18,609 nt of DNA from a virus (lineage: Duplodnaviria > Heunggongvirae > Uroviricota > Caudoviricetes), in IMG/VR virus record IMGVR_UViG_2534681878_000012, positions 1-18,609 of that record; one strand, given 5' to 3'. The position numbers were made by a program, and so were the translations under genes. The notes beneath the pieces were generated by a model. It searched no databases. It had not been told where the DNA came from and worked only from the letters and a program-made list of their open reading frames with translations. This document shows, in pieces, positions 1,832 through 12,632 of the stretch (positions are counted from its first letter, which is position 1; every line of letters begins with the position of its first letter).

Positions 1832-1889
1832 AAAAAGGGCGGCAGAGCAGCCACGGAGTAAAACTGATACCGCCAAACGTCACCAGAAA
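1832..1889 (-). ncRNA. dicF: DicF small regulatory RNA (ftsZ-targeting antisense sRNA of the dicB operon)
   Basis: Minus-strand sequence tttctggtgacgtttggcggtatcagttttactccgtggctgctctgccgcccttttt matches remembered DicF apart from one base, ends in a GC stem plus U-run, and sits between the ydfA-side genes and dicB. Ends are approximate. Confidence 0.8.
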
Positions 1890-3849: not shown

Positions 3850-3892
3850 TAATAACCCTTGACTTGAGATTCCTTGAGTGATTAGCATTGAG
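3850..3892 (+). promoter_or_regulatory. Rightward early promoter (pR-like) with overlapping operator palindrome
   Basis: TTGACT at 3850-3855, about 18 nt, TAGCAT at 3874-3879; perfect 14-bp palindrome TTGAGAAAACTCAA at 3879-3892 over the -10 and start region, same core as the two leftward sites. Confidence 0.55.
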
Positions 3893-6962: not shown

Positions 6963-7355
6963 ATGGCAAAAGTATTTACACCAGAAGAGCGGGAAGAAGT
7001 GAAGGCGCGCATTGTGGAATTCGTGCGCCTGAGCGGACGAGAAACTTTTCGACAACTGGCAGATAAAACGGGTGTCAGTAAGACCGCTATTCGTTGTTTA
7101 TCTGGTGCGCTTGCGGCCAGTGGTGATGTCTGGCTCTCTGGTTGCGGGGTATTTCTATCAGAGCAGGCGTATCGCGTATGGCGCAAGACACCGGAGAAGG
7201 CTGCTGACCCGACACTGATTCGAAAGTTACCTGACGGAGAAATACGTCGTTACAACAGACGGCAGAACATAATTTGTCGTGAGTGCCGCCAGAGCGAAGT
7301 TATGCAGCGTGTGCTGGCGTTCTATCGGGGTAATTTTCAGGAGGTGATGGAGTGA
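6963..7355 (+). CDS. Hypothetical protein (130 aa) with HTH-like segment
   Basis: Internal start MAKVFTPEER... with GGAGG 6 nt upstream (track ORF 6948..7355); stop overlaps the next gene's GTG as GTGA. Confidence 0.55.
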   Translation: MAKVFTPEEREEVKARIVEFVRLSGRETFRQLADKTGVSKTAIRCLSGALAASGDVWLSGCGVFLSEQAYRVWRKTPEKAADPTLIRKLPDGEIRRYNRRQNIICRECRQSEVMQRVLAFYRGNFQEVME

Positions 7356-7648
7356 GGGTGAGAGTTTATATTGCCGGTCCAATGACGGGATATGAAAATT
7401 TCAACCGTGAGGCGTTTCACAAGGCGGAAGAGGAACTGAAACGGGAAGGGCATACCGTCTTAACTCCGGCAGTACTTCCGGACGGGCTGACACAGCCGCA
7501 CTACATGGATATTTGCATGGCAATGATTCGTTGTGTGGATGCGATTTACATGCTGAATGGCTGGCAGCGGTCAGCGGGCGCTAAGGCAGAGCTGGCACTG
7601 GCGGAGAAACTGGGGCATGCGGTGATTTATCAGGAGGTGGCTCGATGA
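7352..7648 (+). CDS. DUF4406 / nucleoside 2-deoxyribosyltransferase-like small protein (98 aa)
   Basis: GTG start; N-terminal VYIAGPMTGYENFNREAFHKAEEEL... is the Rossmann-like signature of the NDT/DNPH1-like fold; stop overlaps the next ATG as ATGA. Confidence 0.6.
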   Translation: MRVRVYIAGPMTGYENFNREAFHKAEEELKREGHTVLTPAVLPDGLTQPHYMDICMAMIRCVDAIYMLNGWQRSAGAKAELALAEKLGHAVIYQEVAR

Positions 7649-8020
7649 GAGAGGTTAACTATGAGGCGCTTCGTGAGGCAGCACAAAACTATCAGTCGAC
7701 GCTGGCGTGGTATCAGGCTACCCCGGACAGCCCAAATGCTGAACGGGATTGTGATGCGGCTCTTGCTGCGTTTAAGCGTCATATCCGTCATCGGGAAGCG
7801 GATATTATCGCTGGTAGCTGGTTTGCTGGATGCGCGGGAAGTTCAATTACCGACTCGCTACGACCTTCGATATGGACACCCGATAAATGCAGATGAGCGA
7901 CATGTCATGATACCTAAAGAAAATGGCAGTTGGCTTTACCTGATTGACCTAGAACACGCATTACGCGTCGCTGGCATTCGCATCAAAGGAGAGGAGCATG
8001 GAAATAAAACCAGAGGATGA
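7645..8020 (+). pseudogene. Ead/Ea22-like gene, copy A, apparently frameshifted and shortened
   Basis: MREVNYEALREAAQ... N-terminus (frame of 7645) shares the Ea22-like motif with copy B; conserved C-terminus ...AGIRIKGEEHGNKTR is in the +1 frame (ends 8020). Frame switch lies near 7810-7830; total span about 125 codons versus 239 in copy B. Confidence 0.5.
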
Positions 8021-8354
8021 GTTAAGCAATATCGTTTTATTTCCGGTAAAAGAGGATGACCCTCGTAATCAGGTTAATTTTCTTTATGAGCCATCGGAAA
8101 GACCATATTGTCATCACGCCTCTGTTCGGGTTGACGAAAAAGAGCGCCAGGTCCGCTGTAAAATCTGCGGTGCGGTTGTGGAGCCGTTTGACTGGATGCT
8201 CTCTGTGGCGAAAAGAGAAACCAGACTGGCAGATGATGTAAGGCTATTGCGCCAGGAGGAACAGGAAAGGCGGAAAAATATAGAAAAGTTAATTCAGATT
8301 GAACGTAACGCGAAAGCGCGGATACGCAGGGCGACAAAATCCAGAACTGAATAA
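7998..8354 (+). CDS. Hypothetical protein with putative zinc ribbon (CHH...CxxC), cassette copy A, 118 aa
   Basis: Track ORF; start lies inside the Ea22-like 3' end; about 95% identical to 9696..10052. Confidence 0.65.
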   Translation: MEIKPEDELSNIVLFPVKEDDPRNQVNFLYEPSERPYCHHASVRVDEKERQVRCKICGAVVEPFDWMLSVAKRETRLADDVRLLRQEEQERRKNIEKLIQIERNAKARIRRATKSRTE

Positions 8355-8404
8355 ATAAATTTAGCGCTGTAAATAAAATCTAATCCTGAACTGGAGGTAT
8401 ATTT

Positions 8405-8617
8405 ATGTTAAATACACAGAAAGCCATTAATGCGGAAAAATATAACGAGTGGGCAAGAAAATTCTCTGAGCAGATTTTTAAAATTACTGGCGATGAGAAT
8501 GCGGCAAAAAATGAATTAGAACCGTGGACACCTGAAGGAAACGCACCAAATTATTGCTGGTGGGAGGTTGATCCGGTTGATGTTGCAAATGAAGCCATGA
8601 GTTACCACAACGATTAA
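8405..8617 (+). CDS. Hypothetical small protein (70 aa), cassette copy A
   Basis: Track ORF with GGAGG RBS; about 88% identical to 10101..10313. Confidence 0.65.
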   Translation: MLNTQKAINAEKYNEWARKFSEQIFKITGDENAAKNELEPWTPEGNAPNYCWWEVDPVDVANEAMSYHND

Positions 8618-8621
8618 TGTC

Positions 8622-8643
8622 AGGAGGCCGCCCGAAAGGGCGG
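8622..8643 (+). promoter_or_regulatory. SD plus GC hairpin with GAAA loop (AGGAGG, CCGCCC-GAAA-GGGCGG) upstream of the 8651 ATG
   Basis: AGGAGG 8622-8627, 6-bp GC stem 8628-8643, ATG at 8651; no U-run, so not a classical terminator. Identical element at 10318-10339. Confidence 0.5.
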
Positions 8644-8650
8644 TAGTTAA

Positions 8651-8833
8651 ATGCGAAAGTTTAAAATAATTATTGAAACGGGAATAGCCGGTGGAGATTT
8701 CGAGGATGAATTCGAAGTGGATGATGATGCGACGCCTGATGAAATACATGACGAAGCAAAAGATATTTTCTTTAACTACTGCAATTATTCATATCACGAA
8801 ATAAAAGACGAAGAGGAAGAACAAAATGGCTGA
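8651..8833 (+). CDS. Small highly acidic protein (60 aa)
   Basis: Track ORF rich in D/E (DFEDEFEVDDDATPDEIHDE...KDEEEEQNG); stop overlaps the next ATG. Confidence 0.55.
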   Translation: MRKFKIIIETGIAGGDFEDEFEVDDDATPDEIHDEAKDIFFNYCNYSYHEIKDEEEEQNG

Positions 8834-9002: not shown

Positions 9003-9718
9003 GCGAGATTGACTATCAGGCGCTGCGTGAAGCAGCAGAGAAAGCAACTAAAGGATGCTACATCGTAGGGCATACATCGGGCAATCAGCATGGGAATATA
9101 ACAGGAGTTTTTGTTTGTCAAAAATGGAAAGGAGAGCCCGGTGGCGTAATTGCAGAATGTCATGTTAACTGCCTGGTTGAAACAGATGCTCAGGCTTACG
9201 CAAACGCTGAATTTATTGCTGCCTTTAATCCAAATGTTGCGCTGGCACTACTGGATGAACGGGAAAGAAACCAGCAATACATCAAATCACGCGACCAGGA
9301 GAACGAGGAGATTGCGCTTACGGAAGGGAAGCTGCTAATCGAAAACGGCCGGCTTGTTGCCGATACGCTACGCCACTTAGCTGATAACGAAATCGACTCT
9401 GATTATTTTGCTATCACCTCAACGAATGAGAACGGTACTGAAATTGATCATGAGATGGCTATTACCGATTACGCACTGCAAGCTGCCGGAACTGTAGACG
9501 AATTGGTTGCGGCGTTGGAATCCGCAGAGAAGCGCATTGCAGAACTGGAAGCACGGGAAATATCGCTCCCAGAACGTAGCAGCATGCTTCATCGAACAGA
9601 TTTTCACGATGATTACCAAACGGTAATGGCATACAAAGTTTCTGAAGTCATCGCTGCAATCCGCGCCGCTGGCATTCGCATCAAAGGAGAGGAGCATGGA
9701 AATAAAACCAGAAGATGA
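8999..9718 (+). CDS. Ead/Ea22-like family protein, copy B (239 aa, intact)
   Basis: N-terminal MSEIDYQALREAAEKA... and C-terminal ...AGIRIKGEEHGNKTRR typical of the family; track ORF. Confidence 0.7.
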   Translation: MSEIDYQALREAAEKATKGCYIVGHTSGNQHGNITGVFVCQKWKGEPGGVIAECHVNCLVETDAQAYANAEFIAAFNPNVALALLDERERNQQYIKSRDQENEEIALTEGKLLIENGRLVADTLRHLADNEIDSDYFAITSTNENGTEIDHEMAITDYALQAAGTVDELVAALESAEKRIAELEAREISLPERSSMLHRTDFHDDYQTVMAYKVSEVIAAIRAAGIRIKGEEHGNKTRR

Positions 9719-10052
9719 GTTAAGCAATATCGTTTTATTTCCGGTAAAAGAGGATGACCCACGTAATCAGGTTAATTTTCTCTATGAGCCATCGGAAAGA
9801 CCATATTGCCATCACGCCTCTGTCCGGGTTGACGAAAAAGAGCGTCAGGTCCGCTGTAAAATCTGCGGTGCAGTTGTGGAGCCATTTGACTGGATGCTCT
9901 CTGTGGCGAAAAGAGAAACCAGACTGGCAGATGATGTAAGGATCTTGCGCCAGGAGGAACGGGAAAGGCGGAGAAATATAGAAAAGCTAATTCAGATTGA
10001 GCGTAACGTGAAAGCGCGGATACGCAGGGTGACAAAATCCAGAACTGAATAA
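9696..10052 (+). CDS. Hypothetical protein with putative zinc ribbon, cassette copy B, 118 aa
   Basis: Paralog of 7998..8354; same overlap with the Ea22-like 3' end. Confidence 0.65.
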   Translation: MEIKPEDELSNIVLFPVKEDDPRNQVNFLYEPSERPYCHHASVRVDEKERQVRCKICGAVVEPFDWMLSVAKRETRLADDVRILRQEERERRRNIEKLIQIERNVKARIRRVTKSRTE

Positions 10053-10100
10053 TTAAATTTAGCTCTGTTAAAAATTTAATCCTTAACCGGAGGTATATCA

Positions 10101-10313
10101 ATGTCAAACGCACAGAAAGTTATTAACGCTGAAAAATATAACGAGTGGGTGAAAAAGTTCTCAGAGCAGATTTTTAAAATTACTGGCGACGAGAATGCGG
10201 CAAAAAATGAATTAGAGCCGTGGACACCTGAAGGTGTCGACCCAAATTATTGCTGGTGGGATGTTGATCCAGTTGATGCTGCAAATGAAGCTATGAGTTA
10301 TCACAACGATTAA
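10101..10313 (+). CDS. Hypothetical small protein (70 aa), cassette copy B
   Basis: Paralog of 8405..8617 with GGAGG RBS. Confidence 0.65.
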   Translation: MSNAQKVINAEKYNEWVKKFSEQIFKITGDENAAKNELEPWTPEGVDPNYCWWDVDPVDAANEAMSYHND

Positions 10314-10317
10314 TGTC

Positions 10318-10339
10318 AGGAGGCCGCCCGAAAGGGCGG
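10318..10339 (+). promoter_or_regulatory. Second copy of the SD plus GAAA-loop hairpin, followed by a 4-codon mini-ORF
   Basis: Same sequence as 8622-8643; ATG at 10342 opens MKSD-stop (10342..10356). Confidence 0.45.
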
Positions 10340-10513
10340 TAATGAAAAGTGACTGAATTAACCAAAGAGAAATTAATCGAAGAAGCCAAATTAAAAATAG
10401 CGATTGCGAAATGCTACCCCAATTCAGGGATGGCACGGGTATAGGGCGAGTTATTCAAAATTGCACTGGCATAGCTGGAAGCAGATCCAGTTAAACGAGT
10501 TAACTCAGATCAG

Positions 10514-11447: not shown

Positions 11448-11635
11448 ATTCATTACGATATGGGAATTCCCATATCGGGTAAAAACGGTTTGCGGTAAAG
11501 CGAGAGTTAAGTAGAATTGCTGCGGGTGCTTGAGGCTATCTGCCTCGGGCATGAACACCAACGGCAGATAGAGAAAAGCCCCAGTTAACATTACGCGTCC
11601 GGCAAGACGCTTAACATTAATCTGAGGCCATATCT

Positions 11636-11848
11636 ATGCTCTACACACGTAGGTTAGCCTCTTACGTGCCGAAAGGCAAGGAGAAGCAGGCTATGAAGCA
11701 GCAAAAGGCGATGCTAATCGCCCTGATCGTCATCTGTTTAACCGTCATAGTGACGGCACTGGTAACGAGGAAAGACCTCTGCGAGGTACGAATCCGAACC
11801 GGCCAGACGGAGGTCGCTGTCTTCACAGCTTACGAACCTGAGGAGTAA
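11636..11848 (+). CDS. hokD: Hok/Gef-family type I toxin (51-aa core from 11693) with in-frame Mok-like N-terminal extension
   Basis: Core MKQQKAMLIALIVICLTVIVTALVTRKDLCEVRIRTGQTEVAVFTAYEPEE matches remembered HokD/RelF. Structured leader (9-bp inverted repeat 11536-11544 / 11563-11571) and 3' stem-loop as in hok mRNAs. Confidence 0.8.
   Translation: MLYTRRLASYVPKGKEKQAMKQQKAMLIALIVICLTVIVTALVTRKDLCEVRIRTGQTEVAVFTAYEPEE
11644..11679 (-). promoter_or_regulatory. Putative Sok-like antisense RNA promoter opposite the mok/hok start
   Basis: Minus strand reads TTGCCT (11674-11679), 17 nt, TAACCT (11651-11656); transcription would run leftward across the 11636 start. Inferred by analogy with hok/sok. 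Confidence 0.35.
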
Positions 11849-11950: not shown

Positions 11951-12268
11951 TCAGGATATTACCTGGATCCCGTTTTTCTCGACAACTGAAAGAAGCCGAA
12001 GAGCTGCACCTCCCGGGCGTTTCACTCCTCGTTCCCAGTCTGATATCAGGTTTTTACTGACGTTGAGGTATCTGGCAAAAACAGGTTGAGACAGATGCTC
12101 TCGTTCTCGCAGTGCACGGATCCTTTCCGGAGACATTACCGGCGCAGGCTGAAGACAAGTTTCATCGAATTCGCGCATAGTTTGTTTTGTGATTGCACCG
12201 ATATCATGGAGTGACTCCATCATTTCATGTACAGATGCAAGTGCATCACTGCGGTAATTTTTACTCAT
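11951..12268 (-). CDS. HTH (XRE-like) antitoxin, HigA-2-like architecture (C-terminal HTH), 105 aa
   Basis: Track ORF; C-terminal ...SQPVFARYLNVSKNLISDWERGVKRP... is HTH-like; lies downstream of and overlaps the toxin by 8 nt. Confidence 0.65.
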   Translation of the reverse strand: MSKNYRSDALASVHEMMESLHDIGAITKQTMREFDETCLQPAPVMSPERIRALREREHLSQPVFARYLNVSKNLISDWERGVKRPGGAALRLLSVVEKNGIQVIS

Positions 12269-12632
12269 TGGGTACCTCCGTGAACTGGCCTTGTTGAATC
12301 AATTGTGCCAGCTGTTCATCAGTAAGATTGAGGACATGGGGAGCGGCTTTTCGAAAAGCATTTTCCTCTATAGCAGTGATATTCTCTCGTTCATTCTTTG
12401 CGTATGCGTAGATGAAAAAGGCTTTTTCTGCAACGCGGTAAAAAATTATTGTCCGGTAACCGCCTGATTTTCCGCCACCACTTCGGGCTAATCTTTGTTT
12501 AATGACACCACTACCCAAATTTGCGGATATGATCCCCTTATCGGCCTGCTCCACGATTTTGCGCAGCGATTTATCGGAAATCCGATGTTTTCGGGCGAAA
12601 CGTTCAAACCAGGCGTTTTTGAAAATTCGCAT
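12261..12632 (-). CDS. RelE/ParE-superfamily toxin, HigB-2-like, 123 aa
   Basis: Motif ...RLARSGGGKSGGYRTIIFYRVAEKAFFIYAYAKNERENI... resembles remembered Vibrio HigB-2; toxin-first order is typical of HigBA modules. Confidence 0.65.
   Translation of the reverse strand: MRIFKNAWFERFARKHRISDKSLRKIVEQADKGIISANLGSGVIKQRLARSGGGKSGGYRTIIFYRVAEKAFFIYAYAKNERENITAIEENAFRKAAPHVLNLTDEQLAQLIQQGQFTEVPNE

What the first reader, a model, noticed from the sequence alone, without database searches (positions are those of the whole stretch)
7352..7648. Nucleoside 2-deoxyribosyltransferase-like (DUF4406) gene in a tightly coupled early gene chain
The 98-aa protein has the N-terminal signature of the NDT/DNPH1-like fold and is linked to its neighbours by GTGA and ATGA overlaps (6963..7355, 7352..7648, 7645..). 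Such small phage enzymes could act on nucleotides or nucleotide-derived signals, so a role in nucleotide metabolism or counter-defence is conceivable but unproven.
Basis: partly seen in the sequence, partly recalled or inferred. Interest (0 to 1): 0.45.

Follow-up and report, generated by a model that had tools for sequence, protein, structure and literature searches.

The report
Small prophage DUF4406 nucleotide-glycosidase-like gene
This is a real, well-conserved 98-amino-acid prophage gene, already annotated in E. coli as a DUF4406 protein; it is a cut-down relative of enzymes that clip the base off DNA building blocks, its substrate is untested, and the finding is ordinary.

Summary
The ORF at 7352..7648 (+, GTG start, 98 aa) exists. 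It overlaps the upstream DUF977 gene by GTGA and the downstream gene by ATGA, and it matches Pfam DUF4406 at E=2.3e-37. The window is the early-right region of a lambdoid prophage of E. coli O157. The protein is identical to RefSeq WP_001266133.1, and the gene occurs in 865 of 5426 complete E. coli genomes. dN/dS of about 0.04-0.2 shows purifying selection.

An AlphaFold model (pLDDT 89.7) matches nucleoside 2-deoxyribosyltransferases, DNPH1 and MilB. A family profile reaches T. brucei NDT at E=1.3e-4 over the full length. Several key residues are kept:
- the nucleophile Glu (E80, 241/243 homologues)
- the Tyr (Y6)
- a Ser six residues before the Glu (S74, 243/243), as in the dNMP/NMP-specific enzymes DNPH1, MilB and phage DmtZ

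The third triad residue, normally Asp or Asn, is Cys55. The C-terminal third of NDTs is missing.

The best reading is a stand-alone minimal deoxynucleotide N-glycosidase expressed with the replication genes. The substrate is unknown. I found no evidence for counter-defence: there is no conserved partner gene and no informative fusion. The gene is already annotated and of modest interest.

The parts
7352..7648 (+). DUF4406 gene, 98 aa, GTG start, TGA stop (identical to RefSeq WP_001266133.1)
   Evidence: dN/dS 0.04-0.2 against 57 distinct homologous core sequences
7340..7344 (+). Shine-Dalgarno GGAGG, 7 nt before the GTG start, lying inside the last codons (QEV) of the upstream gene
   Evidence: conserved in related loci
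7352..7355 (+). GTGA start/stop overlap with the upstream DUF977 gene
   Evidence: the same overlap occurs in almost all E. coli-type loci, and GTGA, ATGA or TGATG junctions occur in 60-65% identical relatives
7367..7369 (+). codon of Tyr6, equivalent to Tyr24 of DNPH1, Tyr7 of L. leichmannii NDT and Tyr6 of DmtZ
   Evidence: Y in 225 and F in 17 of 243 homologues
7514..7516 (+). codon of Cys55, at the position of the triad Asp/Asn (DNPH1 D80, L. leichmannii NDT D72, T. brucei NDT Asn)
   Evidence: C in 199 and D in 18 of 243 homologues, with T/A/G/S/N in the other 26
7571..7573 (+). codon of Ser74, six residues before the nucleophile, equivalent to the phosphate-binding Ser98 of DNPH1 and Ser97 of MilB; nucleoside-specific NDTs have Asp here
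   Evidence: S in 243 of 243; residue roles from PMC10603095
7589..7591 (+). codon of Glu80, the predicted catalytic nucleophile (DNPH1 E104, L. leichmannii NDT E98, MilB E103)
   Evidence: E in 241 of 243
7645..7648 (+). ATGA stop/start overlap with the downstream gene; AGGAGG at 7632-7637
6963..7355 (+). upstream DUF977 gene (PHROG 142, 'Ren-like exclusion protein'), whose stop overlaps the DUF4406 start
7645..8020 (+). downstream ead/Ea22-like gene, frameshifted in this window (frames 7645..7896 and 7661..8020)
   Evidence: an intact 153-aa version is seen in L009

Best explanation
The gene encodes a stand-alone, minimal member of the nucleoside deoxyribosyltransferase (NDT) superfamily. 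It has a four-strand alpha/beta core without the C-terminal segment. It most likely works as an N-glycosidase on a 2'-deoxynucleoside 5'-monophosphate.

Proposed mechanism: Glu80 attacks C1' and forms a covalent deoxyribosyl-5-phosphate-enzyme intermediate. Tyr6 orients the Glu and disfavours ribose. Ser74 and the Gly-rich loop after strand 1 (GPMTG) hold the 5'-phosphate. Water, or possibly another base, then resolves the intermediate.

The gene is transcribed in the rightward early operon, downstream of a candidate promoter, together with the prophage replication genes. Its start overlaps the stop of the upstream gene, which suggests translational coupling. The enzyme would therefore act on the deoxynucleotide pool during lytic DNA replication.

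Shown here: the gene is real and under purifying selection; the fold; the residue equivalences; and the genomic position. Inferred: the chemistry, the phosphate and deoxyribose preference, and the timing of expression. Unknown: which base or nucleotide it removes, and what the phage gains.
For: Family and fold:
- Pfam DUF4406 at E=2.3e-37, plus weak hits to the related DUF1937, DUF7768 and Nuc_deoxyrib_tr.
- phrog_355 'nucleoside 2-deoxyribosyltransferase' at 1.4e-47.
- AlphaFold2 model with pLDDT 89.7 and pTM 0.83.
- Foldseek against the PDB: the top hits are NDTs (2a0k at E=1.2e-5, TM 0.74; Chroococcidiopsis NDT at TM 0.77-0.79), followed by DNPH1 and MilB/BcmB. TIR domains score lower, at TM about 0.6.
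- A profile of 59 homologues matches T. brucei NDT 2a0k at E=1.3e-4 over positions 2-97.
- A bridging phage homologue (BaileyBlu gp28) passes both the DUF4406 and the PF05014 cut-offs.

Residue mapping in two independent alignments:
- Y6 = DNPH1 Y24 = L. leichmannii NDT Y7.
- E80 = DNPH1 E104 = L. leichmannii NDT E98.
- S74 = DNPH1 S98 = L. leichmannii NDT D92.
- Conservation over 243 homologues: S74 243/243, E80 241/243, Y6 225 Y plus 17 F.

Published residue roles:
- DNPH1 uses the triad Y24/D80/E104 and binds the phosphate with S98. MilB keeps S97. Tyr versus Phe at the first position sets deoxyribose versus ribose preference (PMC10603095).
- Phage DmtZ is an NDT-superfamily dAMP hydrolase/transferase with Tyr6/Asn77/Glu103 (PMC12884076). 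It lacks the Asp/Asn that binds the 5'-OH in NDTs. Its Wayne orthologue has the same S-x-G-x-x-x-E spacing.

Selection and context:
- dN/dS is 0.04-0.2.
- The gene lies after the replication genes in this window.
- In 80 other species it sits next to DnaB, lambda P, RusA, DNA methylases, NinX and NinI-like phosphoesterases.
Against: - No member of DUF4406 has been assayed, as far as the searchable literature shows.
- The third triad residue is Cys55 here, not Asp or Asn. It varies in the family (C 199, D 18, others 26 of 243).
- The protein lacks the roughly 50 C-terminal residues that in NDT and DNPH1 reach into the partner subunit's active site. These include DNPH1 S128', which helps bind the phosphate. 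TM normalised to the target is only about 0.5.
- The score against the bona fide NDT model PF05014 is below its cut-off, 14.2 against 28.8 bits.
- No nucleotide-metabolism gene is consistently adjacent.
- I could not inspect the model's coordinates, so the active-site geometry is inferred from alignments only.
Confidence: 0.45

Rival explanations
1. It is a true nucleoside 2-deoxyribosyltransferase. It swaps bases between deoxynucleosides for salvage, as many database names for homologues say.
For: Homologues are widely annotated 'nucleoside 2-deoxyribosyltransferase'. The best structural matches are NDTs, and the best sequence-profile match is T. brucei NDT.
Against: The residue that holds the 5'-OH in NDTs (L. 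leichmannii NDT D92, and Asp in T. brucei and L. mexicana NDT) is an invariant Ser, as in the phosphate-binding enzymes (PMC10603095; PMC12884076). The C-terminal elements that complete the NDT active site are absent. PF05014 is below its cut-off. The database names are propagated from fold similarity and not from assays.
Confidence: 0.1
2. It is a counter-defence protein. It cleaves or sequesters a nucleotide-derived immune signal or an NAD-derived molecule (cyclic ADP-ribose isomers, cyclic oligonucleotides), or a toxic nucleotide made by a host defence system.
For: It is a small accessory gene in a mosaic early region. The fold is shared with TIR and other NAD-cleaving domains (TIR hits at TM about 0.6). 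The absence of a conserved general acid would matter less for a substrate with a good leaving group such as nicotinamide; this last point is my inference from general enzymology.
Against: No positive evidence was found. There is no conserved association with other anti-defence genes and no informative fusion, and nothing in the literature. The gene is a stable component of the replication/nin region in very diverse prophages. NDT, DNPH1 and MilB are clearly closer structurally than TIR. The invariant Ser/Tyr pattern matches dNMP enzymes.
Confidence: 0.12
3. It is a glycosidase with a different substrate class, such as NMN/NAD+ or other ribonucleotides, or a nucleotide within a polymer. Alternatively it is a non-catalytic nucleotide-binding protein whose open, truncated pocket serves regulation.
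For: The C-terminal lid is missing and the third triad residue is variable. 17 of 243 homologues have Phe instead of Tyr6, the MilB-like ribose signature (PMC10603095). Four further positions with no identified NDT counterpart are conserved: F22 243/243, P43 239/243, Y51 241/243 and W71 224/243.
Against: Near-absolute conservation of the nucleophile Glu and of the Ser argues for catalysis and for a phosphate-type ligand. Tyr6 in this protein argues for deoxyribose.
Confidence: 0.18
4. It is a spurious or decaying ORF with no function.
For: The immediately downstream gene is a pseudogene here.
Against: dN/dS is 0.04-0.2 over many variants. There are 18,431 family clusters (50% identity) at E<=1e-3. 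The full-length gene is intact in 857 E. coli genomes. The fold prediction is confident.
Confidence: 0.01

Closest known systems
Pfam DUF4406 (PF14359); RefSeq WP_001266133.1 'DUF4406 domain-containing protein'
   Same: Full-length match to the model (127.7 bits). The sequence is identical to the RefSeq protein annotated in many E. coli O157, O26, O103 and O145 prophages.
   Different: Nothing differs; this is the family it belongs to. The family has no characterised member in the searchable literature.
DNPH1/Rcl (2'-deoxynucleoside 5'-phosphate N-hydrolase) and MilB/BcmB (CMP/hmCMP N-glycosidases)
   Same: Same fold (Foldseek TM 0.7-0.79). Tyr, the Glu nucleophile and the phosphate-binding Ser six residues before it are all present.
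   Different: No sequence-level match. Cys replaces the catalytic Asp80. There is no helical extension or fifth strand, so no S128'-type contact from a partner subunit. There is no H56/E55 helical element. The protein has 98 aa against about 145-165.
DmtZ of Z-genome actinophages (dAMP hydrolase / deoxyribose-5-phosphate transferase; PMC12884076)
   Same: A phage-encoded NDT-superfamily enzyme acting on a dNMP. It has the Tyr and the Glu, a non-Asp third triad residue (Asn), and the same S-x-G-x-x-x-E motif.
   Different: DmtZ has about 145 aa and five strands, has no Pfam model, and is linked to PurZ0 and DutZ. The window protein gives no significant profile match to Wayne DmtZ. It also sits in a lambdoid prophage, and neither PurZ nor DutZ is annotated in the window.
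Nucleoside 2-deoxyribosyltransferases (PF05014; L. leichmannii 1F8X, T. brucei 2A0K, Chroococcidiopsis 8PQT)
   Same: These are the best structural and profile matches, with the same Tyr and Glu. T. brucei NDT also lacks the Asp, having Asn instead.
   Different: The match is below the PF05014 gathering score. Ser replaces the 5'-OH-binding Asp. The C-terminal third, including the residues contributed to the neighbouring active site, is absent.

Membership tests
Pfam DUF4406 (PF14359) | Score at or above the gathering cut-off (22 bits) over the whole 91-position model | tested here: met
   127.7 bits, E=2.3e-37, model positions 2-91
NDT superfamily (N-(deoxy)ribosyltransferase-like fold) | Flavodoxin-like alpha/beta fold with a parallel sheet | tested here: met
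   AlphaFold model at pLDDT 89.7 with beta-alpha repeats. Foldseek probability 1.00 to NDT, DNPH1 and MilB, TM 0.74-0.79 normalised to the query. Profile match to 2a0k at E=1.3e-4.
NDT superfamily | Catalytic Glu nucleophile at the start of the helix after strand 3 | tested here: met
   E80 aligns with L. leichmannii NDT E98, DNPH1 E104 and the T. brucei NDT Glu; 241/243 conserved
NDT superfamily | Tyr at the end of strand 1 (triad member) | tested here: met
   Y6 aligns with L. leichmannii NDT Y7 and DNPH1 Y24; Y in 225 and F in 17 of 243
NDT superfamily | Asp (or Asn) as the third triad residue, eight residues before the acidic residue that precedes strand 3 | tested here: not met
   Cys55 occupies this position. 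In the family it is C 199, D 18, T/A/G/S/N 26.
NDT superfamily | C-terminal strand and helices that complete the active site of the partner subunit | tested here: not met
   The protein ends after strand 4 at residue 98. TM normalised to the targets is only about 0.5, and the targets have 130-160 aa.
Bona fide nucleoside 2-deoxyribosyltransferase (PF05014) | PF05014 gathering score (28.8 bits) | tested here: not met
   14.2 bits, E=0.05
Bona fide nucleoside 2-deoxyribosyltransferase (PF05014) | Asp six residues before the nucleophile, which binds the free 5'-OH | tested here: not met
   Ser74 aligns with L. leichmannii NDT D92 and the T. brucei NDT Asp
DNPH1/MilB-type (d)NMP N-glycosidases | Phosphate-binding Ser six residues before the nucleophile | tested here: met
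   S74-x5-E80, as in DNPH1 S98-E104 and MilB S97-E103; S in 243/243
DNPH1/MilB-type (d)NMP N-glycosidases | Hydrolysis of a nucleoside 5'-monophosphate to base plus (deoxy)ribose 5-phosphate | not testable with these tools
   Needs an enzyme assay
DNPH1/MilB-type (d)NMP N-glycosidases | Second phosphate ligand (S128' from the partner's helical extension in DNPH1; Arg23 in MilB) | tested here: inconclusive
   The helical extension is absent. R19, conserved in 228/243, lies in the loop/helix after strand 1 and could play the MilB Arg23 role, but its spacing from the Tyr differs (13 against 6 residues).
DmtZ (phage dAMP hydrolase/transferase) | Sequence relatedness to DmtZ and linkage to PurZ0/DutZ | tested here: not met
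   hhalign probability 0.6% against Wayne gp53 N-terminal domain. No PurA-like or Dut gene is annotated in the window.
Known anti-phage defence system component (PADLOC) | Match to any PADLOC model | tested here: not met
   0 families at E<=1

The most novel reading that the evidence does not exclude
DUF4406 proteins may be a distinct, very widespread class of minimal phage glycosidases. They would have only the Glu/Tyr/Ser core, with Cys in place of the general acid and an open pocket without the C-terminal lid. Their real substrate would not be a canonical dNMP but a defence-related or damaged nucleotide, such as an NAD-derived or cyclic-nucleotide immune signal, or deaminated or otherwise modified dNMPs produced by host defence. 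That would make them a new enzymatic counter-defence or pool-sanitising module of temperate phages.
Probability: 0.1. Interest if true: 0.7.

Novelty: already known. Interest (0 to 1): 0.3.

Why it matters
The gene is an annotated member of a Pfam DUF and is identical to a RefSeq protein, so nothing new is discovered by seeing it. The family is large, with 18,431 clusters at 50% identity, and it is concentrated in phages and prophages from Enterobacterales to Actinomycetes, Planctomycetota and Clostridia. As far as the searchable literature shows, it has never been assayed.

The residue pattern worked out here gives a specific, cheap hypothesis to test: a dNMP N-glycosidase. The pattern is an invariant Ser-x5-Glu plus Tyr, as in DNPH1, MilB and the recently described phage DmtZ. 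If confirmed, it would assign a function to a common phage gene and show that base removal from deoxynucleotides is a routine part of temperate-phage replication.

Tried and rejected
- Single-sequence phmmer and a shallow profile against the PDB gave nothing significant. A more diverse profile was needed.
- hhalign of the family profile against single DNPH1, L. leichmannii NDT and DmtZ sequences was not significant. An HMM search against DNPH1 and L. leichmannii NDT aligned only the N-terminal Tyr region. Residue equivalences therefore rest on the 2a0k profile alignment and a MAFFT alignment that includes bridging phage homologues.
- Fusion partners of 54 longer homologues gave only DUF551, a ClpX zinc finger and unannotated extensions, which are uninformative.
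- The phage annotations 'MazG-like pyrophosphatase' and 'deoxycytidylate deaminase' for homologues turned out to be naming errors on DUF4406-only proteins, not fusions.
- The neighbour census in 80 species found no constant partner.
- A possible link to DNA methyltransferases was noted in several loci and in PMC8845278. It accounts for only 6 of 141 neighbours, so I did not pursue it.
- PADLOC gave no hit.
- Literature searches for DUF4406, PF14359, WP_001266133, DUF1937 and DUF7768 found only passing mentions or nothing.

Full report
**Observation.** The window contains an ORF at 7352..7648 on the + strand. It starts with GTG and encodes 98 amino acids. Its GTG (7352-7354) overlaps the TGA (7353-7355) of the gene at 6963..7355. 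Its own TGA (7646-7648) overlaps the ATG (7645-7647) of the next ORF. A GGAGG lies 7 nt before the GTG, and an AGGAGG lies 7 nt before the downstream ATG. Both sit inside the last codons (Gln-Glu-Val) of the preceding gene. In close relatives the second in-frame GTG (7358) is often GTC while the first GTG is kept, so 7352 is the start. One correction is needed: the downstream partner is a frameshifted ead/Ea22-like pseudogene in this window. Overlapping starts and stops are the rule along this whole operon.

**Where the window comes from.** The window is 99.9% identical to a prophage region of E. coli O157 strain FDAARGOS_293. The RefSeq annotation of that region reads, on one strand: Cro/CI-like regulator, YdaT-family protein, DnaT-like and lambda-P-like replication proteins, DUF1627, DUF977, DUF4406, ead/Ea22 (frameshifted). 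A run of small genes follows, then RusA and an antiterminator. The gene thus lies in the rightward early operon of a lambdoid prophage, between the replication genes and the Q-like antiterminator. A consensus-like promoter is found before the cro-like gene at 3859-3888, but promoter-like sites in the region are no more frequent than in shuffled sequence. The protein is identical to WP_001266133.1, 'DUF4406 domain-containing protein'. The 297-nt gene is found in 865 of 5426 complete E. coli genomes, at full length in 857, with up to 4 copies per genome.

**Is it a real gene?** Against 57 distinct homologous core sequences from viral contigs, dN/dS is 0.04-0.2 wherever dS is measurable. This is clear purifying selection. 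The family is very large. A profile search of 1.84 billion cluster representatives gave 18,431 proteins at E<=1e-3 and 6,710 at E<=1e-10.

**Family and fold.** Pfam DUF4406 matches at E=2.3e-37 over the whole model. The related families DUF1937, DUF7768 and Nuc_deoxyrib_tr appear only below their cut-offs. PHROG 355, named 'nucleoside 2-deoxyribosyltransferase', matches at 1.4e-47. NCBIfam has no model for it. An AlphaFold2 model built on 40 homologues is confident (pLDDT 89.7, pTM 0.83). It shows four beta-alpha units: strands 4-8, 35-37, 64-67 and 90-93. Foldseek against the PDB ranks these hits:
- nucleoside 2-deoxyribosyltransferases first (T. brucei 2a0k at E=1.2e-5; Chroococcidiopsis NDT at TM 0.77-0.79 normalised to the query)
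- then DNPH1 and the CMP N-glycosidases MilB/BcmB
- TIR domains lower, at TM about 0.6

TM normalised to the targets is only about 0.5, because the targets are 130-160 residues long.

At the sequence level, a single sequence or a shallow profile does not reach any solved structure. A profile of 59 more diverse homologues matches T. brucei NDT at E=1.3e-4 over positions 2-97. One actinophage homologue (BaileyBlu gp28) passes both the DUF4406 and the PF05014 cut-offs.

**Catalytic residues.** Two independent alignments give the same equivalences. They are the profile alignment to 2a0k and a MAFFT alignment that includes bridging phage homologues, T. brucei and L. mexicana NDT, human DNPH1 and L. 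leichmannii NDT. The reference sequences were verified against the PDB.
- Tyr6 corresponds to DNPH1 Tyr24 and L. leichmannii NDT Tyr7.
- Glu80 corresponds to the nucleophiles DNPH1 Glu104 and L. leichmannii NDT Glu98.
- Ser74, six residues before the Glu, corresponds to DNPH1 Ser98 and L. leichmannii NDT Asp92.
- Cys55 corresponds to the third triad residue: DNPH1 Asp80, L. leichmannii NDT Asp72 and the T. brucei NDT Asn.

Across 243 homologous domains the conservation is as follows:

| Position | Residues seen |
|---|---|
| Ser74 | S 243/243 |
| Glu80 | E 241/243 |
| Tyr6 | Y 225, F 17 |
| Position 55 | C 199, D 18, T/A/G/S/N 26 |

Further invariant or nearly invariant residues have no identified counterpart in NDTs: Phe22, Pro39, Pro43, Gly45, Tyr51 and Trp71.

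**What the pattern means.** In DNPH1 the triad is Y24/D80/E104. The 5'-phosphate is held by S98 and by S128' from the partner subunit's helical extension. MilB keeps the equivalent S97 and uses Arg23 as the second ligand. Tyr versus Phe at the first triad position goes with deoxyribose versus ribose preference (PMC10603095). The phage enzyme DmtZ was described in 2026. It is an NDT-superfamily dAMP-specific hydrolase that can also transfer deoxyribose 5-phosphate to 2-aminoadenine. It has Tyr6/Asn77/Glu103, and mutation of Tyr6 or Glu103 abolishes activity. The authors stress that it lacks the Asp/Asn that binds the 5'-OH in nucleoside-specific NDTs (PMC12884076). I retrieved the Wayne orthologue (gp53 of KU160672). 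It carries the same Ser-x-Gly-x-x-x-Glu spacing, although the profile comparison itself is not significant.

The window protein therefore shares with all three characterised nucleotide-specific enzymes the feature that separates them from nucleoside transferases. It also keeps the nucleophile and the deoxyribose-type Tyr. It differs in two ways:
- Cys stands where the acid/amide normally is.
- The protein lacks everything after strand 4, so there is no lid or second phosphate ligand from a partner subunit. Arg19 (228/243) is a candidate substitute, but that is only an inference.

**Context elsewhere.** In E. coli-type loci the upstream gene is always DUF977, with the same GTGA junction, while the downstream gene varies. 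In relatives of 60-65% identity the upstream gene is a DnaB-type helicase, a Dam-type methylase or a small unknown protein, again with overlapping or abutting stop and start codons. I took one locus from each of 80 species, spanning Enterobacterales, Vibrio, Shewanella, Aeromonas, Burkholderiales, Actinomycetes, Chloroflexota, Planctomycetota and Clostridia. I then scanned the flanking same-strand ORFs against Pfam. The hits were RusA, DnaB, lambda P, DNA methylases, DUF968, an Rv2179c-like exoribonuclease, metallophosphoesterases, NinX, Rha/antirepressor and lysis genes. These are typical of the replication-to-lysis stretch of temperate phages. No family recurs often enough to be a partner.

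Among 50,697 phage records, 511 encode a relative. They are mostly Arthrobacter, Vibrio, Gordonia, Mycobacterium and Pseudomonas phages, where the gene again sits among replication and nucleotide genes. Annotations such as 'MazG-like pyrophosphatase' or 'deoxycytidylate deaminase' on these homologues are misnomers for DUF4406-only proteins. Longer homologues carry only uninformative extensions. PADLOC has no matching model.

**Interpretation.** The best-supported reading is a stand-alone minimal N-glycosidase of the NDT superfamily. It would act on a 2'-deoxynucleoside 5'-monophosphate through a Glu80-linked covalent intermediate, and would be made together with the replication proteins. I put this at about 0.45. 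The chemistry is inferred from residue equivalences, the third triad residue is unusual, and no family member has been assayed. The identity of the base is unknown, as is the benefit to the phage (pool sanitation, pool shaping or salvage).

The rivals are:
- a true nucleoside transferase, disfavoured by the Ser and the missing C-terminus
- a counter-defence enzyme or sponge for nucleotide signals, for which no positive evidence was found
- another substrate class such as NAD+/NMN, or a binding-only role

A spurious ORF is excluded by the selection analysis.

**Novelty and score.** The feature is already annotated and belongs to a known Pfam family, so seeing it is not a discovery. Its interest lies only in the fact that a very common phage family remains uncharacterised, and that a concrete, testable activity can now be proposed for it. 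Interest 0.3.

Noticed in passing
window 7645-8020: The ead/Ea22-like gene right after the DUF4406 gene is broken. Its N-terminal part reads in frame 7645..7896 and its C-terminal part in frame 7661..8020. Related loci carry an intact 153-aa version (L009). RefSeq marks it 'frameshifted'.
   Followed up: partly
window 7958-8656 and 9656-10352: There is a tandem duplication of a small-gene module: the tail of the Ea22-like gene, a 118-aa zinc-ribbon-like protein and a 70-aa protein. 7958-8257 matches 9656-9955 at 96%, and 8375-8656 matches 10071-10352 at 88%, with a spacing of about 1697 nt.
   Followed up: partly
window 1837-1888 (-), 11524-11698 (+), 16433-16623 (+), 16624-16685 (-): Rfam matches above gathering score: DicF antisense RNA, sok antitoxin RNA (next to hokD), STnc100 sRNA, and the anti-GcvB sRNA AgvB.
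   Followed up: no
window 11951-12632 (-): A RelE/ParE-family toxin and an HTH antitoxin pair lie on the opposite strand, inside the early-right region, next to hok/sok.
   Followed up: no
window about 15900-16260: A TerB-family (tellurite-resistance-like) gene with an internal stop is annotated as a pseudogene in the near-identical RefSeq record.
   Followed up: no
window 7336-7346 and 7630-7638: The same nonamer CAGGAGGTG, encoding Gln-Glu-Val, ends both the DUF977 gene and the DUF4406 gene. In each case its (A)GGAGG core lies 7 nt before the next start and serves as the ribosome-binding site for the following gene.
   Followed up: partly
proteins P0094, P0137, P0153, P0162, P0166, P0169, P0173: Several Vibrio-type homologues carry one or more copies of an unannotated N-terminal domain fused to DUF4406. 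Its motif is roughly '...L.WLV.NL..WP...GW.W...'. It has no Pfam match.
   Followed up: no
L077, L085, L006 (LESphi3), L007 (NancyRae); Brachyspira prophage in PMC8845278: A DNA methyltransferase lies directly next to the DUF4406 gene in several unrelated prophages. In the 80-species census, methylases were 6 of 141 flanking ORFs, which may be no more than the background for this genome region.
   Followed up: partly
phage records NC_071022.1 gp28, OP297545.1 gp62, NC_028953.1 gp166, OQ594956.1 P31_11: DUF4406-only proteins are deposited as 'MazG-like pyrophosphatase' or 'deoxycytidylate deaminase'. Pfam shows only DUF4406/NDT-type matches, so these are annotation errors.
   Followed up: yes
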